The notes under the pieces were generated by a model. The model was not told where the DNA came from. It saw only the letters and a program-made list of their open reading frames with translations, and ran no database searches. Shown here in pieces: positions 3,946-64,000 of a DNA stretch of 64,000 nt; position 1 is the first letter of the stretch, and every line of letters starts with the position of its first letter. The DNA comes from Escherichia phage EF202P1, in the sequence record OP172796.1, one strand, 5' to 3'. The translations under genes were made by a program, and so were the position numbers.

Positions 3946-11964
<8,019 letters not shown>

Positions 11965-11966
11965 TA

Positions 11967-13154
11967 ATGGCAGTAGGTGAAATTCAAATTAGTGCCTTGC
12001 CTCAAGCAGCCTTACCAATTGACCTTAGTGATATCTTCCATCTTAAGCAGGGTATTGAGGATAAGAGGTGTACTCTTGAGCAATTACTTGCTCCACACTC
12101 AAGCCTAAAAAATAACCCTCATGGTGTTACTAAAACACAAATTGGTTTAGATAATGTTATTAATGCTCTTCAGTTAGTCGCTGCAAATAACTTATCAGAT
12201 ATTGTTAATGTAGCTGAGGCAAGAGCAAATCTACAGATTATGTCTTCAGAAGAGGTTAATAACCTTGTTCAGCAACATATCAAGGACAAGAGTAACCCAC
12301 ACAATACAACTAAGGCACAGGTTGGTTTAAGTAATGTTCAGAACTGGACAACATCTAACCTGTATAATGAAGATGCAGATAAGTATGCTACAGCAAGAGC
12401 AGTAAATAATTTGTACAAGGCTGTTCAGGCTTCTTATCCAGTAGGTACTATCCATCTTTCTATGAACTCTGCAAACCCTTCTACATACTTAATTTGTGGA
12501 GGTACTTGGGAGTTGGTTTCAAAAGGTAGGGCATTGGTTGGCTATGACTCTGATACAAGGCCAGCAGGTTCTGTATTTGGTGCTTCGACTGTCACTTTGT
12601 CAGTTAATAACATGCCTCAACACTCACACTCTGTATCTCTTAGTGGTGGTGGTCACACTCATAATGCAACTGTTTCAATTTCAGCTTTTGACTATGGAAC
12701 AAAGACTACCAACTCTTTTGACTATGGAACAAAGACTACTAACACAACTGGTAACCACAATCACGTTGGTAGTGGGTCAACAAGTGCTGCTGGTGCTCAC
12801 AACCACAGATTGACCTATGAAGCGGGTGGTGGCCTATCGGAGAGACCTGCAATGGTTTGGTCTACAAGAAATGACCAATCATGGTACTCAGCAGATGCTG
12901 TCTGTGAAGTCGCTGGTTCGCACACCCACTCTTTTAGCGTTACCACTAACACAACTGGTAACCATAATCATACGGTGGGTATTGGTGCTCATAGCCATAC
13001 AGTTGGTATTGGTTCACACACACACAATGGTACTGTGGCAGTTTCTTCTTCTGAGCATACACATAGTGGAAACACTAATAGTGTTGGTGGTGGACAAGCT
13101 TTCAACATTGAGCAGCCATCATTCGTGCTGTATGTATGGCAGAGAACAGCTTAA
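11967..13154 (+). CDS. tail fibre protein (short), HxH-rich receptor-binding tip
   Basis: Two NPHxxTKxQxGLxNV fibre repeats; C-terminus with many GxHxH motifs (HTHNATV, GNHNH, GAHSHTVGIGSHTHNG) ending ...WQRTA. Confidence 0.75.
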   Translation: MAVGEIQISALPQAALPIDLSDIFHLKQGIEDKRCTLEQLLAPHSSLKNNPHGVTKTQIGLDNVINALQLVAANNLSDIVNVAEARANLQIMSSEEVNNLVQQHIKDKSNPHNTTKAQVGLSNVQNWTTSNLYNEDADKYATARAVNNLYKAVQASYPVGTIHLSMNSANPSTYLICGGTWELVSKGRALVGYDSDTRPAGSVFGASTVTLSVNNMPQHSHSVSLSGGGHTHNATVSISAFDYGTKTTNSFDYGTKTTNTTGNHNHVGSGSTSAAGAHNHRLTYEAGGGLSERPAMVWSTRNDQSWYSADAVCEVAGSHTHSFSVTTNTTGNHNHTVGIGAHSHTVGIGSHTHNGTVAVSSSEHTHSGNTNSVGGGQAFNIEQPSFVLYVWQRTA

Positions 13155-13164
13155 TTTCTTTACA

Positions 13165-13186
13165 GGGGCTTTATAGCCCCTTTTAA
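13165..13186 (+). terminator. intrinsic terminator between tail-fibre genes
   Basis: GGGGCT-TTAT-AGCCCC then TTTT. Confidence 0.6.
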
Positions 13187-13200
13187 GAGGAAAATTTATA

Positions 13201-15585
13201 ATGGCAGATTACAAATTGAGTGAATTAAACTCAATCGATACAATCCGTTCAGATGACCTTCTTCATGTCAGAGTTAAAAAGAGACCTGAAATGCTGGGTG
13301 ATGAAGACCGTCGAATGACCTATCAAGATTTCTTAGCATCTTTTAAGCTTGAGAGATTTGTTCAGATTATTGGTAGTACCATGACGGGTGATTTAGGTAT
13401 TGTTAAGTTACTTTATGGTGGTAAGACAGTATTTGACCCTACAGGCTCTTCTGAGATTAATATTGGGGATGTTTTAAAGACTTTTAAAATTAACGCAAAC
13501 GGTCTTAAGCTAACTATTGCAGATGCTTCAAGGTCGGCAACTGTTTACCATACCCTGAATAAGCCAAGTCCTAATGAGCTTGGGATGAGAACTAATGAAG
13601 AGAATGATGCAAGATACTCAAGATTAGCTGCAAATAACATCTTTACCTTCCAACAGGTTATTCAAGCAAATGGCGAAGCTATTAGACTAAAAAATTCTTC
13701 TGAGAACTCACCGTTGTATATTAGAGGTCAGGACAGCACTGGTGCTAATAGGTGGTATGTAGGTAATGGTTCAGGGAATGATGATGTTATTATCCACAAC
13801 TACAAGACAGGTTGTGAAGTGAATCTGTCTAGTGTTGCTGCTATCAGTAAAACACTTAGAATCACTGGTCAAGTCCAACCTTCTGACTTCTCTAACTTAG
13901 ATGCTAGATACTTCACACAGACAGTTGCTAATCAGAGATTTGCACAGTTAGCTGCTAATAACAATTTCACTGGCACTAACACGTTTAGCAGAAACCTACT
14001 TATTATTAGTGACAGTGCTGCTTTAAGGTTGAAAAATACTGTAGCAAATGCTGCACTATACGTTAAAGCCGAAGCTAATGATGGTTCTGGTAAGTGGTAT
14101 GTAGGAAATGGTGATAATACACCTGCTGTATTCATCAGCAACTATGTGTATGGTTCTTATCTTAGACTTGACAATGGTCATGTCGCAGTAAACAAGGACT
14201 TCAGAATCACTGGTCAAGTTCAACCTTCAGATTGGGCTAACATCGACTCTAGATACATCCCAGCAGCAACTTTGAGTAACCTACCTAAACTTAATGTTGC
14301 TAACACATTTGTGAATGTGCAAACTATTGTATCAAATAATGAAGGCGTAGTATTAAGAAACTTAACACAGGGACAGCCACAATATATCCGTGGTGTTGAT
14401 ACCCAGAATGTATCTAGGTGGTGGGTAGGTGTGGGTGGCACAAATTCTACTGATGTAGCATTAAACAACAGCTACTCTGGGACTCAAATTACTCTTATGT
14501 CCTCAGCGATTAAGGCTAATAAGAATCTAACCATTACTGGTCAAGTACAACCTTCTGATTGGTCTAACTTAGATGCTAGATATTTTGTTAAAACTCAGTT
14601 ATTAAATCAATCCTTAATGACTGTCTCTGTAGATAACCTTGAAAACCCTTCAGCATTTAATCTTGGATATTCAGGTTTTGTCAGAAACAACAGTGTGACT
14701 AGTGGTCTGAAAGAGTTGGCAATTCATGTTGCTCACTCTAGTAAGTCTGCTGCACATGCAAGGGGTATCTCTTTTGTATACGGTTCAAACGGTTTGGCAA
14801 CATTCACCTATGCCTATGACAAAGACGGCAGATATGCTGGGGAAGCACAGCTTTACACAACTGATTTTAAACCAACCCCTTCAGATATTGGTGCATACAC
14901 TAAAGCTGAAACTGACCAGAAGATTGCACAGGCAGTAAGTGACTCTACAGACCTTAACAAAATCTATCCAGTTGGTATTGTAACGTGGTTTAACAGTAAT
15001 GTTGACCCTAATACAGCACTTCCTGGTCTAACTTGGACGTACCTGAACAATGGTGTTGGTAGAACTATCAGAATCGCAGCAGCAAACGGTTCAGATGTTG
15101 CTACAACTGGTGGTTCAGACTCTGTAACTTTAGCTGTTGGTAACTTACCATCACACACTCACAGTTTCTCTGCTACCACTTCATCTTTTGATTATGGTAC
15201 GAAGGGCACTAATAGTACTGGTGGTCATACTCACTCTGTAAGTGGTACAACAAGTGCTGCTGGTAACCACGCTCACCACTTAGGTTTGTTATTAGTTAAT
15301 GGTGGCGATGCTTTGTACGGTTATACAACAGTTGGTAACAATAAGACAAGGACTCTTGACTGGCTTGACAGAACTGATAACAAGTTCCCTAACACTAACA
15401 CAACTGGTAACCATACACACACATGGTCTGGTACTACAAGCAACACTGGTGCTCACACCCACTCTGTAGGTATCGGTGCTCACACTCATACAGTTAGTGG
15501 TAACACTGGTGGTACAGGTTCTGGTTCAGCATTTAGTGTTACTAACCAGTTCTACAAGTTAATGGCTTGGGTAAGAACTGCTTAA
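13201..15585 (+). CDS. tail fibre protein (long) with three internal ~110-aa repeats and HxH-rich tip
   Basis: Three repeats ending [10 protein letters not shown](W/F)(S/A)N(L/I)D(A/S)RY; C-terminus paralogous to 11967..13154 (SFDYGTKxTN, TNTTGNHx[17 protein letters not shown], ...WVRTA). Confidence 0.8.
13600..14590 (+). repeat. three tandem ~330-345-nt intragenic repeats in long tail-fibre gene
   Basis: ATCACTGGTCAAGT(C/T)CAACCTTC at about 13861, 14206, 14534. Confidence 0.6.
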
Positions 15586-19750: not shown

Positions 19751-19970
19751 AATGACCTCAAAGTTATATTAAATTTTGTATTACATTGAGTATAAAAATA
19801 AGCTATAACACCTGACTTGTCAACAGATTTTATAGCTTATTTGGCAGATTTTTTATAAGGCTACTGCCATCCTTCCATACCTTACTTTACCGTACCTGAC
19901 AGTACAACACTTCAACTTACCCAACCACATAATACCCCACCTTATTAAAAGACCCTCTTAAAGACCTTTT

Positions 19971-20013
19971 AAAAAGGTAAGTCTCATTTTAATGTAGCTG
20001 AGACTAACTACCC
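19971..20013 (-). terminator. minus-strand hairpin with T-run (repeat unit terminator)
   Basis: On minus strand GGTAGTTAGTCTC-loop-GAGACTTACC then TTTTT. Confidence 0.45.
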
Positions 20014-20239
20014 ATACTTTACCTCGCCTAACCGCACCCGAATCAACCGGACTAGACCAAGCCCCACTGCACATCACCGAACCAAACATTACTTAAAAAC
20101 CCTTTTAAAAGACTCTTAAGTGATGTAATCGAATTTTTATGTAGTTCCGATTAACTACCCTTACCAGACATTACCGTACCTGACCCTACATAACCACTCC
20201 TTACCAAGCTCAACCTCATTAAAAGACCCTGTTTAAAGA

Positions 20240-20268
20240 CCTTTTAAAAAGGAGCCTCCGAAGAGGCT
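20240..20268 (-). terminator. minus-strand intrinsic terminator after cassette gene 20280..20720
   Basis: On minus strand AGCCTC-UUCG-GAGGCT then CCTTTTT. Confidence 0.6.
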
Positions 20269-20279
20269 ACCTAGTCAAC

Positions 20280-20720
20280 TTAGAAAGGCTTTCTACGTTG
20301 CTTGTTAATATTAGCTTTCATAGCAGCTAAGTGGTTTTGCTGTTCAATCAGTCGTGAACGTTCTTGATGACTAAGTGCCATAGTGTTCACATTCTCAATC
20401 GCTTGAGTGGCTTGCTTTAAAGCACGACCAATCTTACCAGACATTTTGCGTTTTGCAATAGTTGCTTGATGCTTAGGTTCAACCACACGATAACCAACAC
20501 CCATTGAAGCAACCAGATAAATCTTCTCTTCTTTAAGAAGCTTCTCAATAAACTTCTCAAGTCGGTTTAGACGTGTAAGTGCATAAGCCTTCATTTCATC
20601 TTCGTACTTAACAATGTCACCTTGATAAGTTGGCTTCACAATACCTAAGAAGGTATCCATCTCAGAATGTGATACAGTGTCACCGTAACTAAACTTTGCT
20701 GCTAATGCTTTTGTATTCAT
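20280..20720 (-). CDS. hypothetical protein (isolated cassette gene 2)
   Basis: 146 aa, basic C-terminus; followed on minus strand by UUCG-loop terminator. Confidence 0.45.
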   Translation of the reverse strand: MNTKALAAKFSYGDTVSHSEMDTFLGIVKPTYQGDIVKYEDEMKAYALTRLNRLEKFIEKLLKEEKIYLVASMGVGYRVVEPKHQATIAKRKMSGKIGRALKQATQAIENVNTMALSHQERSRLIEQQNHLAAMKANINKQRRKPF

Positions 20721-20722
20721 AA

Positions 20723-21355
<633 letters not shown>

Positions 21356-21359
21356 GAAC

Positions 21360-21697
21360 CCTCAACAGAAGACTCTTTAGAAACTTGGTAGATTTTTAAT
21401 GTGGCTACTACCATCCACCCATACCATGCCACACCACACCGGACCTTACCTAACCCGACCTTACCATACCTGACCTAACCCTACCATACATTATTAAAAG
21501 ACCCTGTTTAAAGACCTTTTAAAAAGGTAAGTCTCATTTTTATGTAGCTGAGACTAACTACCCACACCAAACCATAGCATACATCGCATTACCGGACAGA
21601 ACCATACTTTACCAAACATCACTTAAAAACCCTCTTAGAAGACTCTTAAGTGATGCTGGTGAGTACCCGTTGGTTTATGCTGCTCAGTATACTCACC
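21360..21697. repeat. second copy of the same intergenic unit family (two to three units)
   Basis: Same boxes and hairpins as 19866..20268, ending in GGTGAGTA/TACTCACC stem. Confidence 0.6.
21521..21563 (-). terminator. minus-strand hairpin with T-run downstream of ligase
   Basis: Same AGTCTC/GAGACT hairpin unit as at 19971..20013. Confidence 0.45.
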
Positions 21698-45497: not shown

Positions 45498-46379
45498 ATG
45501 AAAACATCTATCCGTGTTATAATTCATTCACCGACAAAAGGGTCTCATGAAGAAGAGTTTAACATCATCCAGTTCCCTTCTGGTGAGATTGGTGGACACT
45601 TTTCACAAGAGCTTGTTGACTTTACTGCTCACGCAGCATCATCCATCAACAATGTGATTATGATTGTAAAAGGTTATGATAAAGACACATTGTTTGCTGT
45701 GGCACTTGCTAAAGAAGCAATTGATGATTTAGTTCCTCATGAATATGCCTTAAAGACTGTCATCTTTTACTACTTACCAAATGCACGATATGACCGTCAC
45801 ATGTTTAAAGGTGATGCAGCAGCTTTGAAGGTTTTTGCTAAACAGGTTAATGCAATGGGGTTTGGTGCGGTCTGTGCAGTTGACCCTCACAGTTATGTGC
45901 CAGATAACTTGTTTAACTGCTTCCAAAGTATTCCTCAAAATGAAATTGCAGTCCACTATGCAAATGACCCACTGGTTGATTACTTAGTAGCCCCAGATGC
46001 AGGTGCTTCTAAGAAGATTGCAGAGACTGCTAAAGAGGTGGATAAACCATACATCACAATGTCTAAAGTACGTAACCTTCAGACTGGTGAAATTACTGGT
46101 ATGCGAATCCTTGATGATGTGGATTTGACAGATAAAACTGTCATGATTCTTGATGATATCTGTGATGGTGGTCGAACCTTCATAGAAGCAGCTAAACATC
46201 TTCGTGAAGCAGGTGCAAAGCGTGTGGAACTCTATGTAACACATGGTATCTTCTCTAAAGGTGTTGAAAACCTTCTTGACAATGGTATTGACCACATCTA
46301 CACTACAAACTCTTTAGGGGAAGCTAAAGACCGTGGTTTAACACATTATGGTCAAGTGACTGTAGCAAACCTTGATTAA
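45498..46379 (+). CDS. ribose-phosphate pyrophosphokinase family protein (PRPP synthetase-like; candidate ADP-ribose pyrophosphokinase Adps)
   Basis: PRPP-binding loop VMILDDICDGGRT and Prs-like fold; adjacent to NAMPT-like gene. Confidence 0.8.
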   Translation: MKTSIRVIIHSPTKGSHEEEFNIIQFPSGEIGGHFSQELVDFTAHAASSINNVIMIVKGYDKDTLFAVALAKEAIDDLVPHEYALKTVIFYYLPNARYDRHMFKGDAAALKVFAKQVNAMGFGAVCAVDPHSYVPDNLFNCFQSIPQNEIAVHYANDPLVDYLVAPDAGASKKIAETAKEVDKPYITMSKVRNLQTGEITGMRILDDVDLTDKTVMILDDICDGGRTFIEAAKHLREAGAKRVELYVTHGIFSKGVENLLDNGIDHIYTTNSLGEAKDRGLTHYGQVTVANLD

Positions 46380-46388
46380 AACTTTATA

Positions 46389-46410
46389 GGGGGCTTTTAA
46401 GCCCCATTTT
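46389..46410 (+). terminator. hairpin/terminator between Prs-like and NAMPT-like genes
   Basis: GGGGCT-TTTA-AGCCCC then ATTTT. Confidence 0.55.
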
Positions 46411-46426
46411 GAGAGAGATTAAAAAG

Positions 46427-48208: not shown

Positions 48209-48222
48209 AAGTATATGATAAG

Positions 48223-51504: not shown

Positions 51505-51534
51505 TTGACAAGGGGCTTTGAAGCCCCTTAGAAT
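51505..51534 (+). promoter_or_regulatory. promoter TTGACA-N17/18-TAGAAT with GGGGCT/AGCCCC hairpin inside spacer (rIIB)
   Basis: Hexamers flank AGGGGCTTTGAAGCCCCT stem-loop. Confidence 0.5.
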
Positions 51535-57635: not shown

Positions 57636-57842
57636 ATGCTTTACAGTCGTGAATTGATGGTTACAACTAACGTTAACACAAAGGTAAAACGTTTTTATAT
57701 GCAAGTGTGCGGCGCATGGCGTAGAATATCAGAAGCTGACTATTGCAACTATGTAGAAACGGCTATTAATTCTAATTGCTACCTTACAAGAAACACTAAG
57801 AAATTTACAAGGCAGACAGCGATTTACTACTACGACAAATAA
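57636..57842 (+). CDS. small hypothetical protein (array gene 1)
   Basis: ATG after RBS CTGGAGAATCAAA; sigma70-like promoter upstream. Confidence 0.4.
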   Translation: MLYSRELMVTTNVNTKVKRFYMQVCGAWRRISEADYCNYVETAINSNCYLTRNTKKFTRQTAIYYYDK

Positions 57843-57928
57843 AGTACTTTACAGGGGGCTTAAAAGCTGATATCTTAAGCCCCAGATAAAGAGCTTTACC
57901 ACTCAATCCTAAATTGGAGAACTTAAAA
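57843..57928 (+). promoter_or_regulatory. class-A cassette (TTTACA - hairpin - TATCTT/TAAAGT - conserved leader - RBS)
   Basis: AAGTACTTTACAGGGGGCTT...AAGCCCCAGATAAAGAGCTTTACC...GGAGA...ATG. Confidence 0.5.
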
Positions 57929-58309
57929 ATGGCATACCGTGCACCTAAATTCATCAACAAAGACAACTTTCGCAACGCACTGGAGAAGTCACTTGATGAA
58001 AATTTTAAAGGTAACATTATCGTTGTTCACGCATTCAATTTTAAGTATGATGTAAACGGGAATAGAATCAACCATTACACAGCAACCATGTTAGATGGTA
58101 CGCTATCAAGTGAAAAAGCTGTACTGAATGCACTTGCAGGACGTGGTAAAAACCTGATAAGATGCGATAAGAGACGTTATCAGGGTGGCGCATATGGTTA
58201 TGATGATGCTGTTTATCATCTTGAAAATATGGGCTATTCAGTGGAAAAAGCTGGAGTGTCTCAAATAATCGGCAGTGACGGCTATGTGACAATTTTCAAA
58301 ATTAACTAA
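57929..58309 (+). CDS. small hypothetical protein (array gene 2)
   Basis: ATG 8 nt after GGAGA RBS of conserved cassette. Confidence 0.45.
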   Translation: MAYRAPKFINKDNFRNALEKSLDENFKGNIIVVHAFNFKYDVNGNRINHYTATMLDGTLSSEKAVLNALAGRGKNLIRCDKRRYQGGAYGYDDAVYHLENMGYSVEKAGVSQIIGSDGYVTIFKIN

Positions 58310-58311
58310 TA

Positions 58312-58397
58312 AAGTACTTTACAGGGGGCTTATAGTTCGATAAAGTAAGCCCCAGATAAAGAGCTTTACCACTAAATCCTAAATTGGAGATTCAAAA
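58312..58397 (+). promoter_or_regulatory. class-A cassette
   Basis: Near-identical copy; hairpin GGGGCTTATAGTTCGATAAAGTAAGCCCC. Confidence 0.5.
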
Positions 58398-58655
58398 ATG
58401 GCTATTATTAAAAACGTTGTAATTCCTGCAAAAACTCGTGATGACGCTCGCATCATGGCGAAAAAGTTAGGCGGAAAAGTGGTTGACAACGGAAAACAAA
58501 CTGCTGTAAGGTGGGGCGTGAAAGCTGATAAGCAACTAACCTTAAAACGCAGTTCAAACAACCTTTTTAAAGGTGTAAAATCACTCGGTAAAGTGAACGT
58601 GTTTACCAAAAAAGGCTATAAAATGCACTTATCATTAACTGGCAATTTAATCTGA
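58398..58655 (+). CDS. small hypothetical basic protein (array gene 3)
   Basis: Cassette-preceded ORF. Confidence 0.45.
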   Translation: MAIIKNVVIPAKTRDDARIMAKKLGGKVVDNGKQTAVRWGVKADKQLTLKRSSNNLFKGVKSLGKVNVFTKKGYKMHLSLTGNLI

Positions 58656-58745
58656 TAAAGTACTTTACAGGGGGCTTAAAAGCTGATATCTTAAGCCCCA
58701 GATAAAGAGCTTTACCACTCAATCCTTAAACTAGGAGATTCAAAA
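58656..58745 (+). promoter_or_regulatory. class-A cassette
   Basis: Near-identical copy. Confidence 0.5.
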
Positions 58746-59258
58746 ATGAAAACTGTAGACGCTACCTTTGAAGTTGTAAAAGAAAAATTTTCCATAATTT
58801 ATGAGGCTGTCAATTGCTACGAAGCAAGCCATAATCTTGATAATTGGAAGTTTACAGATGACCATCAAGGCGGTGTGACTATTAAAAACCCCAACTGTCA
58901 GCGTAATGGATTTAAATATGCAATTCCTTTACATTACAGCCTTAAACAGCTTTCAATTGACTATGCAAAACAAGGCCGGGAAAATCCATCGAAAGAGGCT
59001 TACATCAGCTTACAGAAAGAACTAGAAAGAGATTTAGAGGCTTCAGAATATAACATCGCCGCGAAAGTTGTAGATGCAAACGGTAGCACGGTTTTAGAGA
59101 GTTTTTATATTGGTTATGCTTTCGATTGGTGCTACAGTGACGGCGATGATTTAGATGACAGACTAAAAGAGGAAGTGAACAACGCAGACGCAGAATCTGA
59201 AGTATTAGAACGCTTGGAAGCATTAAAAGATTCAGTGATGAATATCTTTAAGAACTAA
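58746..59258 (+). CDS. hypothetical acidic protein (array gene 4)
   Basis: Cassette-preceded ORF. Confidence 0.45.
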   Translation: MKTVDATFEVVKEKFSIIYEAVNCYEASHNLDNWKFTDDHQGGVTIKNPNCQRNGFKYAIPLHYSLKQLSIDYAKQGRENPSKEAYISLQKELERDLEASEYNIAAKVVDANGSTVLESFYIGYAFDWCYSDGDDLDDRLKEEVNNADAESEVLERLEALKDSVMNIFKN

Positions 59259-59349
59259 ATAGATTTCTTTACACGGGGCTAACAAGCGGATATGATAGCC
59301 CCAGATAAAGAGATTTATCAAATTAACCCTTAAACTAGGAGATTCTAAA
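59259..59349 (+). promoter_or_regulatory. class-A cassette (divergent copy, TTTACA-17-TATGAT)
   Basis: Hairpin sequence differs (CGGGGCTA...TAGCCCC) but hexamers and spacing kept. Confidence 0.5.
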
Positions 59350-59646
59350 ATGAAATTATCAAATAAAGTTAGGGAAAACCTTAGCAAATTACTCAATAAA
59401 ATTGATTTTATCGAGACATCAAGGAATAGTCATGATGTTATGGAATGGTTACACGGCAAAATAAAAGGCCGTCGCGTCGTGATTTGCTTATGGAATAGTT
59501 GCAGGGAATATAAAAAGCCTGTATTGCAAATTAATGTTTATGATGATACTTTTAAAAGTCCTGTAAAGTCTAAAAGCGATTTATTAGAATCCTATGAGAT
59601 AACTGTAAATGGCAAAGTATCATGTAAAGAGGAAGCACCATGTTAA
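59350..59646 (+). CDS. small hypothetical protein (array gene 5)
   Basis: Cassette-preceded ORF. Confidence 0.45.
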   Translation: MKLSNKVRENLSKLLNKIDFIETSRNSHDVMEWLHGKIKGRRVVICLWNSCREYKKPVLQINVYDDTFKSPVKSKSDLLESYEITVNGKVSCKEEAPC

Positions 59647-59972
59647 TGATGGGTATCACTGCAATCATTGCCATTATAGCACTGTACAAGGCTTATAGCG
59701 CATATAATTTGGCAAGTAAGGCAATCACGCAACAGGTTAATAATAGCCTTGTAATGAGCTTTCTGGAGCGTTTAAGTGATGAACAAATAAAACGGTTAGA
59801 AATGAGCTTCAGATTTCAATCAAAAACTTATCAAATCAGCGACATTTTCAAAGATAATTTTCAGCTTGTCGATGATTATAACTCTCTGATAAATGCTTTA
59901 AATATCAGTGACTTAAAAGACTATTACACTGTAATTGTCCAAGAACTGAACAAACGAAAAAATTTCTCTTGA
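59640..59972 (+). CDS. small membrane protein (array gene 6)
   Basis: N-terminal TM helix MLMMGITAIIAIIALY; overlaps upstream ORF. Confidence 0.4.
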   Translation: MLMMGITAIIAIIALYKAYSAYNLASKAITQQVNNSLVMSFLERLSDEQIKRLEMSFRFQSKTYQISDIFKDNFQLVDDYNSLINALNISDLKDYYTVIVQELNKRKNFS

Positions 59973-60062
59973 TTTTAGTTTTAAAAACAAGTAAATTACT
60001 AATCAACGGGGAGGGAATGACCTTCCCCACTAAGTAAAGTCCTTAAACTAGGAGATTCAAAA
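59969..60062 (+). promoter_or_regulatory. class-B cassette (TTGATT-17-TAAATT promoter, 5' hairpin GGGGAGG/CCTTCCCC, RBS)
   Basis: Promoter hexamers, then AATCAACGGGGAGGGAATGACCTTCCCCACTAAGTAAAGTCCTTAAACTAGGAGATTC..ATG. Confidence 0.55.
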
Positions 60063-60335
60063 ATGTACACTACTAACAACGGTCGCACCTTAAACGTAAC
60101 CCTACGTCACTATGTGAACGGTGTAATGCACTTCGAGGATTTACAAGCTGAACAGCACATTTTGGATTGGCAACTTGCAGGATTCCAAAAAACTGCTACC
60201 GGATACGGGAAAAAGATTCCAACTAGCTGGAAAGTATACTACGAAGGCCGTTTGCGTAGAATTTATCAAGATGTATGCGGCAATAGCGCATCAAGTTACA
60301 TCATAGTAAAAGGCAAAAAGCTGCATTTAGTATAA
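60063..60335 (+). CDS. small hypothetical protein (array gene 7)
   Basis: Cassette-preceded ORF. Confidence 0.45.
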   Translation: MYTTNNGRTLNVTLRHYVNGVMHFEDLQAEQHILDWQLAGFQKTATGYGKKIPTSWKVYYEGRLRRIYQDVCGNSASSYIIVKGKKLHLV

Positions 60336-60420
60336 AGTACTTTACAAGGGGCTTATAGTTCGATAAAGTAAGCCCCAGATAAAGAGCTTTACCACTAAAT
60401 CCTAAATTGGAGATTCAAAA
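60336..60420 (+). promoter_or_regulatory. class-A cassette
   Basis: Near-identical copy. Confidence 0.5.
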
Positions 60421-60825
60421 ATGGCTATTAATAATCGTGAGTTATCTATCTTAAAAGCACGTTTGACCGTCAACCGGATTAATGTTATCACATCATCAGC
60501 ACCAGATGAAACACTGCAAAACATTATTGGGAAGATTCAAAGTATTATCTTAGACGTTGAAAGCGTAAAAAACTCATTGGCTGACGTTGCAGCCGGTATC
60601 ACGCTAGACGGTGCACAACATGAGATGGCCGACATGTTAGGCAAATCAAAGGTAATGAATAAAGAGCTTGATTTAAAGATGTTCCGATTTGCTGTTAAAG
60701 TGTGGCTATCCGTCGAGTATGACGCTAATTTTGCAATCGCTGATTTCTTTGCCACTTGGTTACAACGTAACTTAACAAATCATGATTTCCGTGATGTCTG
60801 TGATGCAATCTACGCAGAACTTTAA
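60421..60825 (+). CDS. small hypothetical protein (array gene 8)
   Basis: Cassette-preceded ORF. Confidence 0.45.
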   Translation: MAINNRELSILKARLTVNRINVITSSAPDETLQNIIGKIQSIILDVESVKNSLADVAAGITLDGAQHEMADMLGKSKVMNKELDLKMFRFAVKVWLSVEYDANFAIADFFATWLQRNLTNHDFRDVCDAIYAEL

Positions 60826-60832
60826 AAAGATG

Positions 60833-60925
60833 TTGACACTGATTTTTAGATAGATTAAATTACTCATCAACGGGGAGGCAATAGCCTCCCTACTAAGTAA
60901 AGTCCTTAAACTAGGAGATTCAAAA
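60833..60925 (+). promoter_or_regulatory. class-B cassette (TTGACA-17-TAAATT)
   Basis: As above, hairpin variant GGGGAGGCAATAGCCTCCC. Confidence 0.55.
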
Positions 60926-61123
60926 ATGGCTATTATTAACGGCTTAAACATTGAAACAACACACATCAAAGATATCAAAGTTGGTGATGTAGTCCTTTCC
61001 CACGGCGTAGAAAAAACTGTCACTGCAAAGGATATCAAAGAGGATTCTTTCATGGGTAGAACTCTCTTCGGTGATTCTTATTGCTTAGGTTATCTTGCAG
61101 TTTTAAAAGTTGTCAAAAATTAA
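60926..61123 (+). CDS. small hypothetical protein (array gene 9)
   Basis: Cassette-preceded ORF. Confidence 0.4.
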   Translation: MAIINGLNIETTHIKDIKVGDVVLSHGVEKTVTAKDIKEDSFMGRTLFGDSYCLGYLAVLKVVKN

Positions 61124-61215
61124 GTAATAAAGTGCTTTACAAGGGGCTTAAAAAGTTGGTATCTTAAGCCCCAGATAAAGAGCTTTACACAGTCCTTAAA
61201 CTAGGAGATTAAAAA
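61124..61215 (+). promoter_or_regulatory. class-A cassette
   Basis: Near-identical copy. Confidence 0.5.
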
Positions 61216-61464
61216 ATGATGAACTATTTCAATGTCCCTGATACCTGCCGACTATTGACACAAGAAGAAAACTTGGGTAAACCTTTTCTTTACCACATAC
61301 CAGACAACACACCAAAAACTTATAGTTACAATGTCAACCGTTTTACCGCATACGCTGCAAAGAACGGTTATAAGTTGGTCACTCAAAAAGTAATGCTGGT
61401 TACAACCGCTGATGAGATTCCTACAGTTGCAGTTAAACTAATTTTCTCAAAAAAAGTTAAATAA
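61216..61464 (+). CDS. small hypothetical protein (array gene 10)
   Basis: Cassette-preceded ORF. Confidence 0.45.
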   Translation: MMNYFNVPDTCRLLTQEENLGKPFLYHIPDNTPKTYSYNVNRFTAYAAKNGYKLVTQKVMLVTTADEIPTVAVKLIFSKKVK

Positions 61465-61549
61465 AGTACTTTACAAGGGGCTTATAGTTCGATAAAGTAA
61501 GCCCCAGATAAAGAGCTTTACCACTAAATCCTAAACTGGAGATTCAAAA
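61465..61549 (+). promoter_or_regulatory. class-A cassette
   Basis: Near-identical copy. Confidence 0.5.
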
Positions 61550-62113
61550 ATGAAATGCTATCACGGAACTACCCTCAAAAACTTTGTAAACCTGCTGAAT
61601 GGTGGCGACAAGCCGGAAGGAATCTGGAACTGCTCATACATGGATGATTGTTTCTACGTTTACCCAATGAACAAGATTATCAAAACGGAATGTCTGGAAG
61701 ATGAGGAAGATTCTTACATTCGTGAACGCTGCATTCAAAACGCTTTAGAATCTGGGCTTATTACGGCAGCTTTCCAAATGGAAACGCAGGATGTAATTGT
61801 CATTGAGATGGATATCCCAGAGGAAGAGCTAGAGGATGATTATTCTTGTGACAACATGAGCGATATCGCCAGCTTTACCGGACACTTTGATAAAAATTGG
61901 ATTATTGGCCTTCACTCGACGAAATTTAGTGCGATGTATGCACCTTTCTTTGTACCAGATGCAACTAACCGCAATTTAGGCTATGTTGACGATGATTTGT
62001 TAAGTATGGCGAAAATTGTACAGAATAGCGGTGATAGTTCCGTGTTTTGTGACTTGCTGGATAAAATCACGGCAAACATCACAGAGTGCAATTTAAAAGA
62101 CTTTTTAGGTTAA
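61550..62113 (+). CDS. hypothetical strongly acidic protein (array gene 11)
   Basis: Cassette-preceded ORF; Asp/Glu-rich (EDEEDSY, EEELEDDYSCD). Confidence 0.45.
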   Translation: MKCYHGTTLKNFVNLLNGGDKPEGIWNCSYMDDCFYVYPMNKIIKTECLEDEEDSYIRERCIQNALESGLITAAFQMETQDVIVIEMDIPEEELEDDYSCDNMSDIASFTGHFDKNWIIGLHSTKFSAMYAPFFVPDATNRNLGYVDDDLLSMAKIVQNSGDSSVFCDLLDKITANITECNLKDFLG

Positions 62114-62176
62114 TCAGTACAAAGACACCAACTTCCAACTTAAGGCCCATACAGGGCCATTTAAAGGGCTTAAATC

Positions 62177-62410
62177 ATGCTTACAACCGTTTATCTTATC
62201 CTTTCTATTTGTAATGGTCATTCATGTGATTTTAAAGGGCTTGAGGAGTTTACAGGGAGTAAAGAAAATGCTATTCAAGTTTGCCAGATAGCAAGACAAG
62301 ACTATCCCGCCAGTGATGATATTCAATGTTACTTTAAGACAGAAGACAGCGACGGCGTTTATTTTGACAGTGTCGATGGTCAATATGAAATTATCATTGA
62401 AAAAGACTAG
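62177..62410 (+). CDS. small hypothetical protein (array gene 12)
   Basis: ORF after GGCCC hairpin. Confidence 0.4.
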   Translation: MLTTVYLILSICNGHSCDFKGLEEFTGSKENAIQVCQIARQDYPASDDIQCYFKTEDSDGVYFDSVDGQYEIIIEKD

Positions 62411-62501
62411 ACAAGCCTGATAAAAGTCTGTAAATTGTCAATCAACGGGGAGGGAATGACCTTCCCCACTAAATAAAGTCCTTAAACTAGGAGATTCTAA
62501 A
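62408..62501 (+). promoter_or_regulatory. class-B cassette (TAGACA-17-TAAATT)
   Basis: As above. Confidence 0.5.
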
Positions 62502-62843
62502 ATGGCTTATGTAACTGTAATTACCGATAAAGCTGGCGCATCTTGGTCAACTCAAGTAAGCGATAAGATGTCACCTATGCAGTGCCTAAAATACTTTGAG
62601 CAGTGGAACAAAGGCGAGGATGTAAGCCCCTTTCAAGTGATGCAGATTATCCATGTAGACAACGAAGGGAATAAAACGACGCTGAATAGTGAGCACTATG
62701 TAAGCCGTTTTGAAACGAGAAGTAAAACAATGAAACTTTTACGTGAATCCGGTTACGCCCATATCGCCGCGTTAATCTGGGATGACCTGCTAAAAAGACA
62801 GCGTATCAGCTATGTAAAACCTGAAAAAATATTTATCAGTTAA
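62502..62843 (+). CDS. small hypothetical protein (array gene 13)
   Basis: Cassette-preceded ORF. Confidence 0.45.
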   Translation: MAYVTVITDKAGASWSTQVSDKMSPMQCLKYFEQWNKGEDVSPFQVMQIIHVDNEGNKTTLNSEHYVSRFETRSKTMKLLRESGYAHIAALIWDDLLKRQRISYVKPEKIFIS

Positions 62844-62973
62844 TCAATAACTTACAAAAAACTTTTAAAAAGATGTTGACAATCCCTCTTGACATTGGTA
62901 ACTTTGTTCGAGGGGGGTTTATCTAAAAGGGATTAACTTAAAAGATTCTTTATAGATAGACTTAAAAAATTGC

Positions 62974-63066
62974 TTGCAATCAGATATCAAAACAAGTAAA
63001 TTACTCATCAACGGGGAGGCAATAACCTCCCTACTAAGTAAAGTCCTTAAACTAGGAGATTCTAAA
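62974..63066 (+). promoter_or_regulatory. class-B cassette (TTGCAA-17-TAAATT)
   Basis: As above. Confidence 0.5.
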
Positions 63067-63597
63067 ATGAACAAGTTCAAAGCTATCAACTATATTCGTT
63101 CCGTCAATGTCATGTCAAAGCCTGTAAAAGATACGTATGAATTTCGTTGTAATGGTGTACACTTCGCAACAATCACCAAATCAGAAAACGGGGCTTATTA
63201 CGTTCATCGCCGTAATGTTGCAACCGTTGTAGTCTCTCATTTTATGCAAGCTGTCGCGGAACTTCTCCCGATGTTTTTAGGTCTTTATTTAGATGAGTGT
63301 AAAAACGTTCACAGCCACGTTAAAAACCTTTTAAATAGCTATAAAATGGCTTATGAACGTTCTATCAAGTCCTTAAACAAGTTTTACAACGCACCTGAAA
63401 ATACTGTATCAATGGCCTACGATGTAAATGGTGAGGCGGTGAGTCTCTTTGAAGTGGAAGAAATCAAGCTGCATGATTTACGCCCTAGCGGTTACTCTAA
63501 GACTCTCGGTGAAGGTTTAACGTTCAATATCAAGAACTTAGAAAAAACTTTAAAAGATATTGAAAAAGATATTGACGAGACAATCAAAAATCTGTAA
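63067..63597 (+). CDS. hypothetical protein (array gene 14)
   Basis: Start at ATG after class-B cassette RBS. Confidence 0.45.
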   Translation: MNKFKAINYIRSVNVMSKPVKDTYEFRCNGVHFATITKSENGAYYVHRRNVATVVVSHFMQAVAELLPMFLGLYLDECKNVHSHVKNLLNSYKMAYERSIKSLNKFYNAPENTVSMAYDVNGEAVSLFEVEEIKLHDLRPSGYSKTLGEGLTFNIKNLEKTLKDIEKDIDETIKNL

Positions 63598-63663
63598 ATT
63601 GTCAATCAACGGGGAGGGAATGACCTTCCCCACTAAGTAAAGTCCTAAACTGGAGATTCAAAA
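63573..63663 (+). promoter_or_regulatory. class-B cassette (TTGACG-16-TAAATT)
   Basis: As above; -35 lies in 3' end of upstream CDS. Confidence 0.5.
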
Positions 63664-63927
63664 ATGGAACACGTCGAACTGACCACAATTTTACAAATTG
63701 CAACCGACAAAGAGGATGTAGCATTATTCCACCGTATCGAAAGTGACTTGTTCAATGGTGAAATCATTAAAGAATCTTACGAAGTGGTCGGATTCAAAGA
63801 TGGTAAATCATTTGGATTCTTTGACCTCGACAAAGGCAAAGCGGTTACAAAATATGATGTTTTATCTTGTGAGATTCTGACAAAATACAACGAAAAAAGA
63901 CTTGCAACATACGCCAACATGCAGTAA
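63664..63927 (+). CDS. small hypothetical protein (array gene 15)
   Basis: Cassette-preceded ORF. Confidence 0.45.
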   Translation: MEHVELTTILQIATDKEDVALFHRIESDLFNGEIIKESYEVVGFKDGKSFGFFDLDKGKAVTKYDVLSCEILTKYNEKRLATYANMQ

Positions 63928-63996
63928 ATTACTAATCAACGGGGAGGGAATGACCTTCCCCACTAAATAAAGTCCTTAAACTAGGAGATTCTAAAA
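63902..63996 (+). promoter_or_regulatory. class-B cassette (TTGCAA-17-TAAATT)
   Basis: As above; next ORF starts at about 63997 and runs off the window. Confidence 0.5.
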
Positions 63997-64000
63997 TGGC

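What the first reader, a model, noticed from the sequence alone, without database searches (positions are those of the whole stretch)
57843..61549. Promoter architecture with a stable stem-loop built into the spacer (class A), also seen at the rIIB promoter
In class-A cassettes a -35-like TTTACA and a -10-like hexamer (TAAAGT, TATCTT or TATGAT) are 17-18 nt apart, and the 5' arm of a GGGGCTT/AAGCCCC hairpin fills the spacer while the 3' arm lies just past the -10. The divergent copy at 59259..59349 changes the hairpin sequence but keeps hexamers and spacing, which argues for selection on both. The same layout occurs at 51505..51534 (TTGACA-AGGGGCTTTGAAGCCCCT-TAGAAT before rIIB). The hairpin would form only in read-through RNA from upstream, so the element could act as a combined terminator or RNase-processing site for the upstream gene and promoter for the downstream gene.
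Basis: partly seen in the sequence, partly recalled or inferred. Interest (0 to 1): 0.55.

Follow-up and report, generated by a model that had tools for sequence, protein, structure and literature searches.

The report
Promoter-plus-hairpin cassettes in Felix O1-like phage
The repeated ~90-base spacers between small early genes of this Felix O1-like phage are portable units that combine a host-type promoter with a large RNA hairpin, the same kind of element already known as "PeSL" cassettes in T4-like phages, so the design is real but not new in kind.

Summary
The window is a Felix O1-like myovirus (Felixounavirus). Seven class-A cassettes lie between 57,840 and 61,552. [quoted passage not shown]

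In 116 unique copies from three Ounavirinae genera, TTTACA is invariant, spacing is 17-18, and only T-12/A-11 are invariant in the variable loop. TG precedes the -10 in 56%.

The hairpin is larger than described. It has three helices over 59-60 nt (~20 bp) and its lower stems include the -35 hexamer. 97% of pair positions are kept, with three compensatory pairs. G.U pairs outnumber A.C 145 to 5, so it acts as sense-strand RNA. It can form only in read-through RNA.

No T-run follows it, unlike this genome's true terminators. I therefore favour RNA processing or 3'-end protection (RNase III-sized substrate) over intrinsic termination. This step is inferred.

ORF gains and losses between relatives end exactly in the cassettes.

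All this matches PeSL cassettes of T4-like phages (Arbiol 2010), including the rIIB and class-B layouts. It has not been reported for Felix O1-like phages. Verdict: new member of a known kind, moderate interest.

The parts
57840..57931 (+). Class-A cassette 1. Stop TAA 57840-42; extended hairpin 57840-57898; -35 TTTACA 57848-53; -10 TATCTT 57871-76 (TG at -15/-14); SD GGAG 57916; ATG 57929.
   Evidence: RNA fold -21.9 kcal/mol, z -4.3
58310..58400 (+). Class-A cassette 2. Hairpin 58310-58368; -35 58318-23; -10 TAAAGT 58341-46; ATG 58398.
   Evidence: -22.4 kcal/mol, z -4.2
58656..58748 (+). Class-A cassette 3. Hairpin 58656-58714; -35 58664-69; -10 TATCTT 58687-92; ATG 58746.
59259..59352 (+). 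Class-A cassette 4, the divergent copy. Hairpin 59259-59318 with an uninterrupted 13-bp lower stem and upper stem GGGGCTA/TAGCCCC; -35 59268-73; -10 TATGAT 59291-96; ATG 59350.
   Evidence: -24.8 kcal/mol, z -7.2; carries the compensatory G-C to U-A change in the lower stem
60333..60423 (+). Class-A cassette 5. Hairpin 60333-60391; -35 60341-46; -10 TAAAGT 60364-69; ATG 60421.
61128..61218 (+). Class-A cassette 6. Hairpin 61128-61187; -35 61136-41; 18-nt spacer; -10 TATCTT 61160-65; ATG 61216.
61462..61552 (+). Class-A cassette 7. Hairpin 61462-61520; -35 61470-75; -10 TAAAGT 61493-98; ATG 61550.
51505..51534 (+). rIIA-rIIB intergenic promoter. TTGACA 51505-10; 18-nt spacer made entirely of the hairpin AGGGGCT-TTGA-AGCCCCT; TAGAAT 51529-34; rIIB ATG 51579.
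   Evidence: hexamers and hairpin are conserved in Felixounavirus and Mooglevirus; the Erwinia phage keeps only the hairpin
59969..60065 (+). Class-B cassette. TTGATT 59969-74; N17; TAAATT 59992-97; hairpin GGGGAGGG-AATGA-CCTTCCCC 60008-28, at the 5' end of the predicted transcript; ATG 60063.
60833..60928 (+). Class-B cassette. TTGACA 60833-38; N17; TAAATT 60856-61; hairpin 60872-91 (GGGGAGGC/GCCTCCCT); ATG 60926.
62408..62504 (+). Class-B cassette. TAGACA 62408-13; TAAATT 62431-36; hairpin 62447-67; ATG 62502.
62974..63069 (+). Class-B cassette. TTGCAA 62974-79; TAAATT 62997-63002; hairpin 63013-32; ATG 63067.
63572..63666 (+). Class-B cassette. TTGACG 63572-77; TAAATT 63595-600; hairpin 63611-31; ATG 63664.
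63902..63998 (+). Class-B cassette. TTGCAA 63902-07; TAAATT 63925-30; hairpin 63941-61; ATG 63996. The window ends here.

Best explanation
Each class-A element is a portable regulatory cassette of the PeSL type (promoter-early stem-loop). It spans from the stop codon of one small early ORF to the ATG of the next.

(1) Promoter. On DNA it is a host sigma-70 promoter: CTTTACA, 17-18 bp, then (TGn)TAnnnT. It fires about 7 nt past the -10, near the 3' end of the upper helix, and produces an unstructured ~45-nt leader with GGAG and ATG.

(2) Hairpin. In RNA that reads through from upstream, the same bases fold into a 59-60-nt hairpin of about 20 bp:
- H1: UAAAGU/GCUUUA, which starts at the stop codon.
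- H2: CUUUA/UAAAG, which is the -35 hexamer.
- A 3x3 internal loop.
- H3: GGGGCUUAA/UUAAGCCCC.
- An 11-nt loop holding TGnTA of the -10.
This hairpin insulates neighbouring transcription units. No U-tract follows it, and its length and internal loop resemble phage T7 RNase III sites. I therefore think it most likely acts after transcription. It would be cut, and/or would serve as a 3'-end barrier that leaves the upstream mRNA capped by H3. Classical intrinsic termination seems less likely.

(3) Shuffling. Because about 90 bp are repeated in one orientation, recombination between copies adds, deletes and swaps ORF-plus-cassette units.

Status of each step: shown by sequence comparison are the promoter-like conservation pattern, the sense-strand RNA pairing, and indels that end in cassettes. 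Inferred are actual initiation, the fate of the RNA at the hairpin, and the recombination mechanism.
For: Identity and spread:
- The window is a Felixounavirus.
- Cassette homologues occur in 274 phage records. By organism name nearly all are Felix O1-like coliphages, Salmonella and Shigella phages, Citrobacter phages (Mooglevirus) and Erwinia phages (Kolesnikvirus). A handful carry other names, such as 'Campylobacter phage A132'.
- All 151 copies found in 28 sources lie on the gene strand.

Promoter:
- In 116 unique copies TTTACA is invariant and the spacer is 17 in 107 copies. It is 18 in 6 copies counted by the script, and in 2 more that the script mis-anchored and I read by eye.
- Thirteen different -10 hexamers all keep T1, A2 and T6. 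TG is at -15/-14 in 63 of 113 copies.
- In the apical region only T and A of the -10 are 100% conserved. The G of TGn is 91%, T-7 is 99%, and hexamer positions 3-5 are at most 39%.
- In Felix O1, class-A cassettes precede genes 16, 17 and 20. Genes 16 and 20 peak 5 min after infection by RT-PCR (PMC3185647).

Hairpin:
- Single-sequence folds are -21.6 to -24.8 kcal/mol with z from -3.3 to -7.2. 96 of 97 cores fold as one long hairpin.
- 97.4% of pair positions are paired, against 31-57% when partners are slid. The covariation score is 0.079 against 0.051 in shuffles (0 of 500 reach it).
- Compensatory pairs: columns 7-60 GC78/UA10, 21-47 GC92/UA4, 3-64 UA76/AU2.
- G.U occurs 145 times against A.C 5 times, so the structure is selected on the sense strand.
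- The primary-transcript leader is unstructured (z about 0). Read-through RNA carries the hairpin.

Not a classical terminator: true terminators of this genome (48220, 52702, 54498, 57159) have T-runs; the cassette hairpins do not.

Shuffling:
- 113 of 177 alignment-block ends fall in cassettes, which cover 18% of the region.
- Three clean ORF-plus-cassette indels leave a single cassette in relatives. In one of them that cassette is visibly built from both flanking copies, and in another its loop type matches the left copy in one relative and the right copy in two others.

Precedent: RB49/phi1 PeSLs have the same anatomy. For them promoter activity and a terminator-like reduction of downstream expression were measured (PMC2839356).
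Against: - There is no experimental RNA-end data for any Felix O1-like phage.
- The -10 hexamers are weak (4 of 6), and T-7 is also constrained by pairing.
- Covariation rests on few independent events (roughly 2-3 lineages per pair), and cassette copies are related to one another.
- Folding energies of the two strands are similar (-22.4 against -22.0 kcal/mol), so the strand call rests on pair types only.
- The 3' repeat AGATAAAGAGCTTTA is more conserved than pairing alone requires. It could have another role, such as a protein site or an initial transcribed sequence.
- Felix O1 gene 17, behind a class-A copy, peaks at 25 min rather than 5 min.
- The RB49 stem-loop was reported to behave like a strong terminator in a reporter assay, so termination cannot be excluded.
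Confidence: 0.7

Rival explanations
1. The hairpin is a transcription terminator or attenuator in the strict sense, which is the original PeSL reading. RNA polymerase coming from upstream would stop at the stem-loop, so each ORF would be transcribed mainly from its own promoter.
For: The stem-loop of RB49 PeSL211/210 reduced lacZ expression as much as rrnB T1 (PMC2839356). The upper helix is GC-rich and stable. The position between genes fits this role.
Against: No U-tract follows either the upper helix (AGAUAAAGAG) or the whole hairpin (CCACUAAAUCC). The genome's evident terminators all have T-runs. This view also does not explain why the AU-rich lower helices and the internal loop are conserved. 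The reporter result in RB49 does not separate termination from RNA cleavage.
Confidence: 0.15
2. The two flanking near-palindromes (ATAAAGnnCTTTAC, over the -35 and over +1 to +16) and the inverted repeat are DNA operators. A phage or host regulator would bind them to switch the early promoters off or on. On this view the RNA hairpin is a by-product of the symmetry.
For: The 3' repeat GATAAAGAG.TTTA is almost invariant across three genera, more than pairing needs. Each repeat is itself a near-palindrome and overlaps core promoter positions. How Felix O1 times its transcription is unknown (PMC3185647).
Against: Changes in the 5' repeat are matched by complementary changes in the 3' repeat of the same copy, at columns 7-60 and 3-64. 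Mismatches are almost all G.U on the sense strand, 145 against 5, which DNA binding does not predict. Upper-stem sequences differ within one genome (GGGGCTTA, GGGGCTA, GGGGAGGG, GGGAGGC) while pairing is kept. This rival is not exclusive of the main explanation.
Confidence: 0.08
3. The hexamers are incidental. On this view the cassette is only an RNA element (hairpin plus translation leader) in a long polycistronic early transcript started far upstream, and no initiation occurs inside it.
For: The match to consensus is only 9 of 12, and such matches are frequent in this AT-rich genome. TTTACA and T-7 are also constrained by pairing.
Against: T-12 and A-11 lie in the loop, are under no pairing constraint, and are 100% conserved, while neighbouring loop positions vary freely. 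The G of TGn is 91% conserved, and the spacer is fixed at 17-18 despite indels elsewhere in the stem. Class-B and rIIB sites show clean sigma-70 promoters joined to unrelated hairpins. RB49 PeSLs were shown to be strong promoters.
Confidence: 0.07

Closest known systems
PeSL (promoter-early stem-loop) cassettes of T4-like phages RB49/phi1, T4/PST and KVP40/nt-1 (Arbiol et al. 2010, PMC2839356; Comeau et al. 2014, PMC4122927)
   Same: [quoted passage not shown]
- A sigma-70-type early promoter. T4/PST PeSLs use TTTACW-N17-TAYWAT, almost the class-A consensus.
- A G-run/C-run stem-loop with G.T pairs, placed between -35 and -10 (as at rIIB), overlapping -10 or -35 (class A), or just downstream of -10 (class B).
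- Clustering among small ORFs of unknown function.
- ORF indels between related phages bounded by the cassettes.
   Different: - The phage lineage is different (Ounavirinae, not T4-like).
- No sequence similarity was detectable by BLAST: the cassette query listed no T4-like phage such as RB49 or phi1.
- The class-A hairpin is extended by two AU-rich lower helices built from a flanking 14-15-nt direct repeat. The -35 hexamer and the stop codon are therefore part of a ~20-bp structure.
- Promoter, terminator and mini-circle activities were measured for RB49 and not here.
RNase III processing sites of phage T7 early and late mRNAs (R0.3, R1.1 and others; from established knowledge, not tested here)
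   Same: Irregular intergenic hairpins of about two helical turns, with an upper stem, an internal loop and a lower stem. They lie between genes of a polycistronic phage transcript. Cleavage leaves a 3' hairpin that stabilises the upstream mRNA. In T7 they often lie next to phage promoters.
   Different: No sequence relation. Cleavage of the Felix O1-type hairpin has never been shown. T7 sites do not have a host promoter embedded in the stem-loop.
Extended -10 sigma-70 promoters and T4 early promoters (from established knowledge)
   Same: A -35 like GTTTAC/TTTACA, a 17-bp spacer, TGn upstream of TAnnnT, and an A/T-rich upstream region.
   Different: Positions 3-5 of the -10 are unconstrained here. 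The whole core promoter is palindromically embedded.
Canonical intrinsic (Rho-independent) terminators, for example those of this genome at 48220, 52702, 54498 and 57159
   Same: A GC-rich stem-loop directly after a stop codon.
   Different: The cassettes have no U-tract, a much larger loop (11 nt), and extra lower helices.
Bacterial intergenic repeat hairpins (REP/BIME, ERIC) that act as mRNA 3' stabilisers (from established knowledge)
   Same: Repeated, transcribed, imperfect palindromes between genes.
   Different: Those occur in both orientations and carry no promoter. Here all 151 copies are in one orientation with promoter and SD.

Membership tests
PeSL cassette | [quoted passage not shown] | tested here: met
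   Seven class-A copies in the window all run from TAA to ATG. 151 copies were found in 28 sources.
PeSL cassette | Sigma-70-like early promoter hexamers at 17 +/- 1 bp | tested here: met
   TTTACA is invariant, the spacer is 17 or 18, and TAnnnT is present in 115 of 116 copies. Initiation itself was not tested.
PeSL cassette | Stable stem-loop (G-run/C-run, with G.T pairs) placed within or next to the promoter | tested here: met
   Folds have z from -3.3 to -7.2. Pairing is conserved at 97.4%. The three placements seen here equal published PeSL subclasses.
PeSL cassette | Clustered among small ORFs of unknown function, with ORF indels between relatives bounded by cassettes | tested here: met
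   113 of 177 block ends fall in cassettes (18% of the sequence). Three clean ORF-plus-cassette indels were found. Neighbouring ORFs are annotated as hypothetical.
PeSL cassette | Measured promoter activity, terminator/attenuator activity, and mini-circle formation | not testable with these tools
   These need reporter fusions, RNA-end mapping and inverse PCR.
PeSL cassette | Sequence homology to T4-like PeSLs, or residence in a T4-like genome | tested here: not met
   BLAST of the cassette lists no T4-like phage; by organism name the hits are nearly all Felix O1-like, Citrobacter and Erwinia phages. The host genome is a Felixounavirus. It is therefore an analogue or new member of the kind, not a homologue.
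Intrinsic terminator | GC-rich hairpin followed at once by a U-tract | tested here: not met
   No T-run follows the upper helix or the whole hairpin. The scan lists none of the cassettes but does list four true terminators nearby.
RNase III processing site (T7 type) | About 20 bp of irregular double helix with an internal loop, in a transcribed intergenic position | tested here: met
   6 + 5 + 9 bp with 1x1 and 3x3 internal loops, sense strand, between ORFs.
RNase III processing site (T7 type) | Cleavage by RNase III in vivo or in vitro | not testable with these tools
   Needs an rnc mutant host or purified enzyme.
Curated RNA families (Rfam 15) | Match to a covariance model | tested here: not met
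   No match reaches a gathering score in 51-64 kb. The best hit over a cassette is a chance mir-22 shape match, 21 bits against 48 needed.

The most novel reading that the evidence does not exclude
The class-A element could be a dual-entry mRNA start. A host promoter and an RNase III-type cleavage site would be superimposed so that initiation at the promoter and cleavage of read-through RNA in the internal loop yield mRNAs with nearly the same 5' leader (AGAUAAAGAGCUUUAC...). The upstream mRNA would be left capped by the GC-rich upper helix.

A further possibility follows from the flanking repeats, which are mutually complementary. The 5' leader of each monocistronic mRNA could pair with the half-hairpin at its own 3' end and close the message into a panhandle.

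Neither idea has been described for PeSLs or for any phage promoter.
Probability: 0.25. Interest if true: 0.6.

Novelty: new member of a known kind. Interest (0 to 1): 0.38.

Why it matters
The Felix O1 genome paper listed these sequences only as direct repeats. It stated that secondary promoters and temporal control of transcription in this phage were unknown.

Recognising the repeats as promoter/hairpin cassettes gives a concrete map of early transcription units for a widely used typing and biocontrol phage group, with about 13 promoters in the last 6 kb of this window.

It also shows that PeSL-style modular gene shuffling is not confined to T4-like phages. It appears to have arisen in an unrelated myovirus subfamily too.

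For phage engineering, the cassettes mark natural, insulated insertion sites.

The extended RNase III-sized hairpin gives a testable lead on what the stem-loop half of PeSL-type elements actually does.

Tried and rejected
1. An alternative -10 at the TAAAGT of the 5' repeat, which aligns with the class-B -10 TAAATT. Rejected: the upstream coding sequence has no consistent -35 at 16-18 bp and no TGn.

2. A second promoter using TTTACC of the 3' repeat with TAAATT downstream. Rejected: the spacing is only 9 bp.

3. Intrinsic terminator on either strand, including the minus-strand 'terminator' annotation given to the class-B cassette hairpins in phage XTG1. Rejected: there is no T-run on either strand and the pair types favour the plus strand.

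4. Rfam scan of 51-64 kb found nothing above threshold.

5. MITE/REP-like selfish repeat. Rejected: strict single orientation and fixed stop-to-ATG placement.

6. More distant contigs with a 41%-identical macro-domain protein (L032, L033) gave no class-A hits. Only L032 was also checked for intergenic repeats of this kind, and it has none.

7. Literature searches for a prior description in Felix O1-like phages, or for transcript maps, found none. The phiEa21-4 genome paper could not be opened. From memory it reports a dispersed conserved terminator, which I could not compare.

8. Folding energy as a strand test was uninformative, because both strands fold about equally well.

Full report
**What the window is.** Megablast of 57.6-61.8 kb finds 247 phage records. 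Nearly all are Felix O1-like coliphages, Salmonella, Shigella and Citrobacter phages, at 90-96% identity for the best hits. The window is therefore a Felixounavirus (Ounavirinae). The region after about 57.8 kb is a run of small plus-strand ORFs annotated as hypothetical proteins in the related records.

**Checking the observation.**
- Direct-repeat analysis finds the class-A family at 57839, 58309, 58655, 60332 and 61461, with further members at 59259 and 61128. It also finds a second family, class B, at 59982, 60845, 62421, 62986, 63585 and 63915.
- A script located, for each of the seven class-A copies, TTTACA, a 17-nt spacer (18 in the copy at 61136) and a TAnnnT hexamer (TATCTT, TAAAGT or TATGAT). 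GGAG follows about 40 nt later and ATG 12-13 nt after that.
- The 5' arm GGGGCTTA(A) fills the spacer. The 3' arm starts within the last one or two bases of the -10.
- The copy at 59259 has a different stem (GGGGCTA/TAGCCCC) and the same hexamer spacing.
- The rIIB site is TTGACA-N18-TAGAAT, 11 of 12 consensus positions.
- TTTACA-N17-TAnnnT occurs seven times in the 64 kb on both strands. Six are class-A copies and 1.75 are expected by chance.
- As plain consensus matches the hexamers are weak (9 of 12), and such matches are common in this genome (77 against 44 expected in 16 kb). The case for a promoter has to come from conservation.

**The hairpin is much larger than described.** RNA folding of 70-nt segments gives one extended hairpin of 59-60 nt. 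Its parts are:
- H1: UAAAGU/GCUUUA, 6 bp, beginning with the stop codon of the upstream ORF.
- H2: CUUUA/UAAAG, 5 bp, which is the -35 hexamer.
- A 3x3 internal loop.
- H3: GGGGCUUAA/UUAAGCCCC, 9 bp.
- An 11-12-nt loop that holds TGnTA of the -10.

The energies are -21.6 to -24.8 kcal/mol, with z-scores from -3.3 to -7.2. The lower helices arise from a 14-15-nt direct repeat flanking H3 (ATAAAGTACTTTAC and ATAAAGAGCTTTAC), and each repeat is itself nearly palindromic. In the divergent copy at 59259 the lower stem becomes 13 uninterrupted pairs.

**Relatives.** A profile of the window copies was run over several sources:
- XTG1, Citrobacter phages Michonne and Moogle, and Erwinia phage phiEa21-4;
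- 29 IMG/VR loci fetched through the neighbouring macro-domain gene, so chosen without reference to the cassette sequence.

It found 151 class-A copies in 28 sources. All lie on the gene strand, and 116 are unique. BLAST of one cassette against all phage records hits 274 records, with no T4-like phage listed among them.

**Evidence for a promoter.** Across the unique copies:
- TTTACA never changes.
- The spacer is 17 in 107 copies. It is 18 in 6 copies counted by the script, and in 2 more that the script mis-anchored and I read by eye.
- Thirteen different -10 hexamers occur, and all keep T1, A2 and T6. There is one exception, TAAAGC.
- TG sits at -15/-14 in 63 of 113 copies.
- Column by column, in the apical region of the hairpin, the T and A at -12/-11 are the only 100%-conserved positions. 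The G of TGn is 91% and T-7 is 99%. Hexamer positions 3-5 are essentially free, at most 39%.

This is the signature of an extended -10 sigma-70 promoter, and it cannot be explained by pairing, because T-12 and A-11 are in the loop.

In Felix O1 itself, class-A copies precede genes 16, 17 and 20, and class-B copies precede genes 19, 21, 22 and 23. Genes 16, 20, 21 and 22 are among the 21 of 102 ORFs whose RT-PCR signal peaks at 5 min (PMC3185647). This is weak but consistent support.

**Evidence that the hairpin is selected as RNA on the sense strand.** On 97 unique cores (alignment A1) the three-helix structure has 97.4% of pair positions paired, against 31-57% when the 3' partners are slid by 1-3 columns. 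The covariation score is 0.079 against 0.051 in shuffles, and none of 500 shuffles reaches it.

Double compensatory changes occur at three pairs:

| Pair (columns) | Helix | Counts | Where |
|---|---|---|---|
| 7-60 | H1 | G-C 78, U-A 10 | two lineages |
| 21-47 | H3 | G-C 92, U-A 4 | Erwinia phages, GGTG/CACC |
| 3-64 | H1 | U-A 76, A-U 2 | Erwinia phages |

Non-Watson-Crick positions are overwhelmingly G.U: 145, against 5 A.C and 42 others. For example, pair 23-45 is C-G in 53 cores and U.G in 42. G.U on the plus strand would be an A.C mismatch on the minus strand, so the structure is constrained on the transcript of the genes.

The caveats are that cassette copies are related to each other, that the independent events are few, and that MFE energies of the two strands are similar.

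**When the hairpin can form.** With a start about 7 nt after the -10, near 57883-57885, transcripts from a class-A promoter contain only the 3' halves of H2 and H1. The predicted leader is unstructured (z about 0). RNA entering from upstream folds the whole hairpin even in a 131-nt context (z -3.1).

**What the hairpin does.** It is not a canonical intrinsic terminator:
- H3 is followed by AGAUAAAGAG, and the complete hairpin by CCACUAAAUCC.
- The consensus scan reports none of the cassettes, yet it reports four nearby hairpins with T-runs at 48220, 52702, 54498 and 57159. At least three of these correspond to terminators t2, t5 and t13 of Felix O1.
- The conserved AU-rich lower helices and the internal loop bring the helix to about 20 bp, roughly two turns. 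From established knowledge, this is the geometry of the phage T7 RNase III sites, where cleavage in the internal loop leaves a protective 3' hairpin on the upstream mRNA.

I therefore think a post-transcriptional role is the most likely action: cleavage and/or a 3'-exonuclease barrier that separates neighbouring messages. This step is inference only. Termination or attenuation, as proposed for PeSLs, remains possible.

**Cassettes as recombination substrates.** I compared 57-64 kb with 30 related loci. 113 of 177 alignment-block ends lie in class-A or class-B cassettes, which make up 18% of the region. Three indels are exact ORF-plus-cassette units:
- ORF 61216-61464 is present here but absent in L022, L006 and L015. 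There a single cassette joins the same flanking genes. Its loop type is that of the left copy in L006 and of the right copy in L022 and L015.
- ORF 58746-59258 is absent in L010 and L021. In L010 the remaining cassette is visibly built from both flanking copies.
- ORF 58398-58655 is absent in L005 and L011.

Michonne also has two cassettes in tandem with no ORF between them.

**The other layouts.**
- Class-B cassettes have a clean promoter (TTGACA-like, N17, TAAATT, A-rich upstream) placed upstream of an 8-bp hairpin that starts about 10 nt after the -10, at the 5' end of the transcript. There are 112 unique copies, with many different but always complementary stems.
- The rIIA-rIIB site keeps TTGACA, a 17/18-nt spacer consisting of a 7-8-bp hairpin, and TAGAAT in Felixounavirus and Mooglevirus. 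The Erwinia phage keeps only the hairpin.

The rIIB layout is thus related to class A but not identical to it.

**Comparison with what is known.** Arbiol et al. 2010 described PeSLs in RB49/phi1. These are repeated intergenic cassettes that begin at the upstream stop codon and end with SD and ATG. They are made of a sigma-70-like early promoter and a G-run/C-run stem-loop with G.T pairs. Five subclasses are defined by stem-loop position: between -35 and -10, overlapping -35 or -10, upstream, or just downstream of -10. The authors measured promoter activity and a terminator-like reduction of downstream expression, and showed a role in ORF shuffling and mini-circle formation. Comeau et al. 2014 extended this to T4/PST, whose consensus TTTACW-N17-TAYWAT is nearly that of class A, and to KVP40/nt-1.

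The three layouts in this window map onto three of those subclasses. All sequence-level defining features are met. Homology and lineage are not, and activity cannot be tested here.

I found no paper describing these elements in Felix O1-like phages:
- The Felix O1 paper lists the class-A 57-bp and class-B 39-bp sequences merely as direct repeats. It says promoters downstream of terminators and temporal control are unknown.
- The wV8 paper does not mention promoters.
- The other Felixounavirus papers opened (UAB_Phi87; APEC phages ASO1A/ASO1B) give only promoter counts.
- The XTG1 record labels class-B hairpins as minus-strand terminators.
- Rfam has no matching family.

**Verdict.** The architecture is the published PeSL design, here in a new phage subfamily and with a distinctive extended, RNase III-sized hairpin that incorporates the -35 hexamer and the stop codon. 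I rate it a new member of a known kind, of moderate interest. The open and testable point is what the hairpin does to the RNA.

Noticed in passing
window 59969-64000 (six copies; more probably follow beyond the window end): Class-B cassettes: a clean sigma-70 promoter (TTGACA-like, N17, TAAATT) upstream of an 8-bp GGGGAGGG/CCTTCCCC hairpin placed at the 5' end of the predicted transcript. 112 unique copies in relatives have many different but complementary stems. A 5'-terminal hairpin could protect the mRNA from 5'-end-dependent decay.
   Followed up: partly
window 13150-13200 and 46375-46425: Short relatives of the class-A core in late-gene regions: (C)TTTACA or TTTATA directly followed by a GGGGCT-loop-AGCCCC hairpin and then a T-run (TTTTAAG, ATTTTGA). 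These look like ordinary terminators and may resemble the ancestral form of the class-A hairpin.
   Followed up: partly
window 19870-20250 and 21360-21650: Two 300-400-nt non-coding stretches almost free of G on the plus strand (ACC/TAC-rich). They carry repeat families (D5, D6, D11) and small hairpins, and they flank a minus-strand two-ORF unit at 20280-21310. Function unknown.
   Followed up: no
L002 (Citrobacter phage Michonne) 7344-7520: Two class-A cassettes lie in tandem with the ATG of the first fused directly to CTTTACA of the second. Duplicated 258-nt ORFs sit on either side. This looks like a footprint of cassette-mediated duplication or deletion.
   Followed up: partly
class-A cores, e.g. 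window 57840-57900: 74 of 97 unique cassette cores contain stop codons in all three reading frames, against 50 +/- 4.5 in shuffles (TAA in each flanking repeat, TGA or TAA in the loop). A cassette would therefore close any ORF placed upstream of it.
   Followed up: partly
L001 (phage XTG1, KT184316) 8007-8027, 10619-10639, 11484-11504, 13038-13058, 14199-14219: The public record annotates these cassette hairpins as Rho-independent terminators on the minus strand. Neither strand has a T-run there. In class-B copies the stem carries G.U pairs that pair only on the plus strand, and these copies sit downstream of plus-strand promoters. The strand and label are probably wrong.
   Followed up: partly
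window 57907-57919, 58377-58389, 60040-60053: A conserved 3-4-bp mini-hairpin UCC(U)-N6-(A)GGA in the leader of both cassette classes partly covers the Shine-Dalgarno GGAG. It may tune translation.
   Followed up: no
window 12700-15480: Several direct-repeat families lie inside long plus-strand coding sequence, for example ACTGGTAACCACAATCAC. They correspond to the repeats that the Felix O1 paper reports within genes 76 and 77.
   Followed up: no
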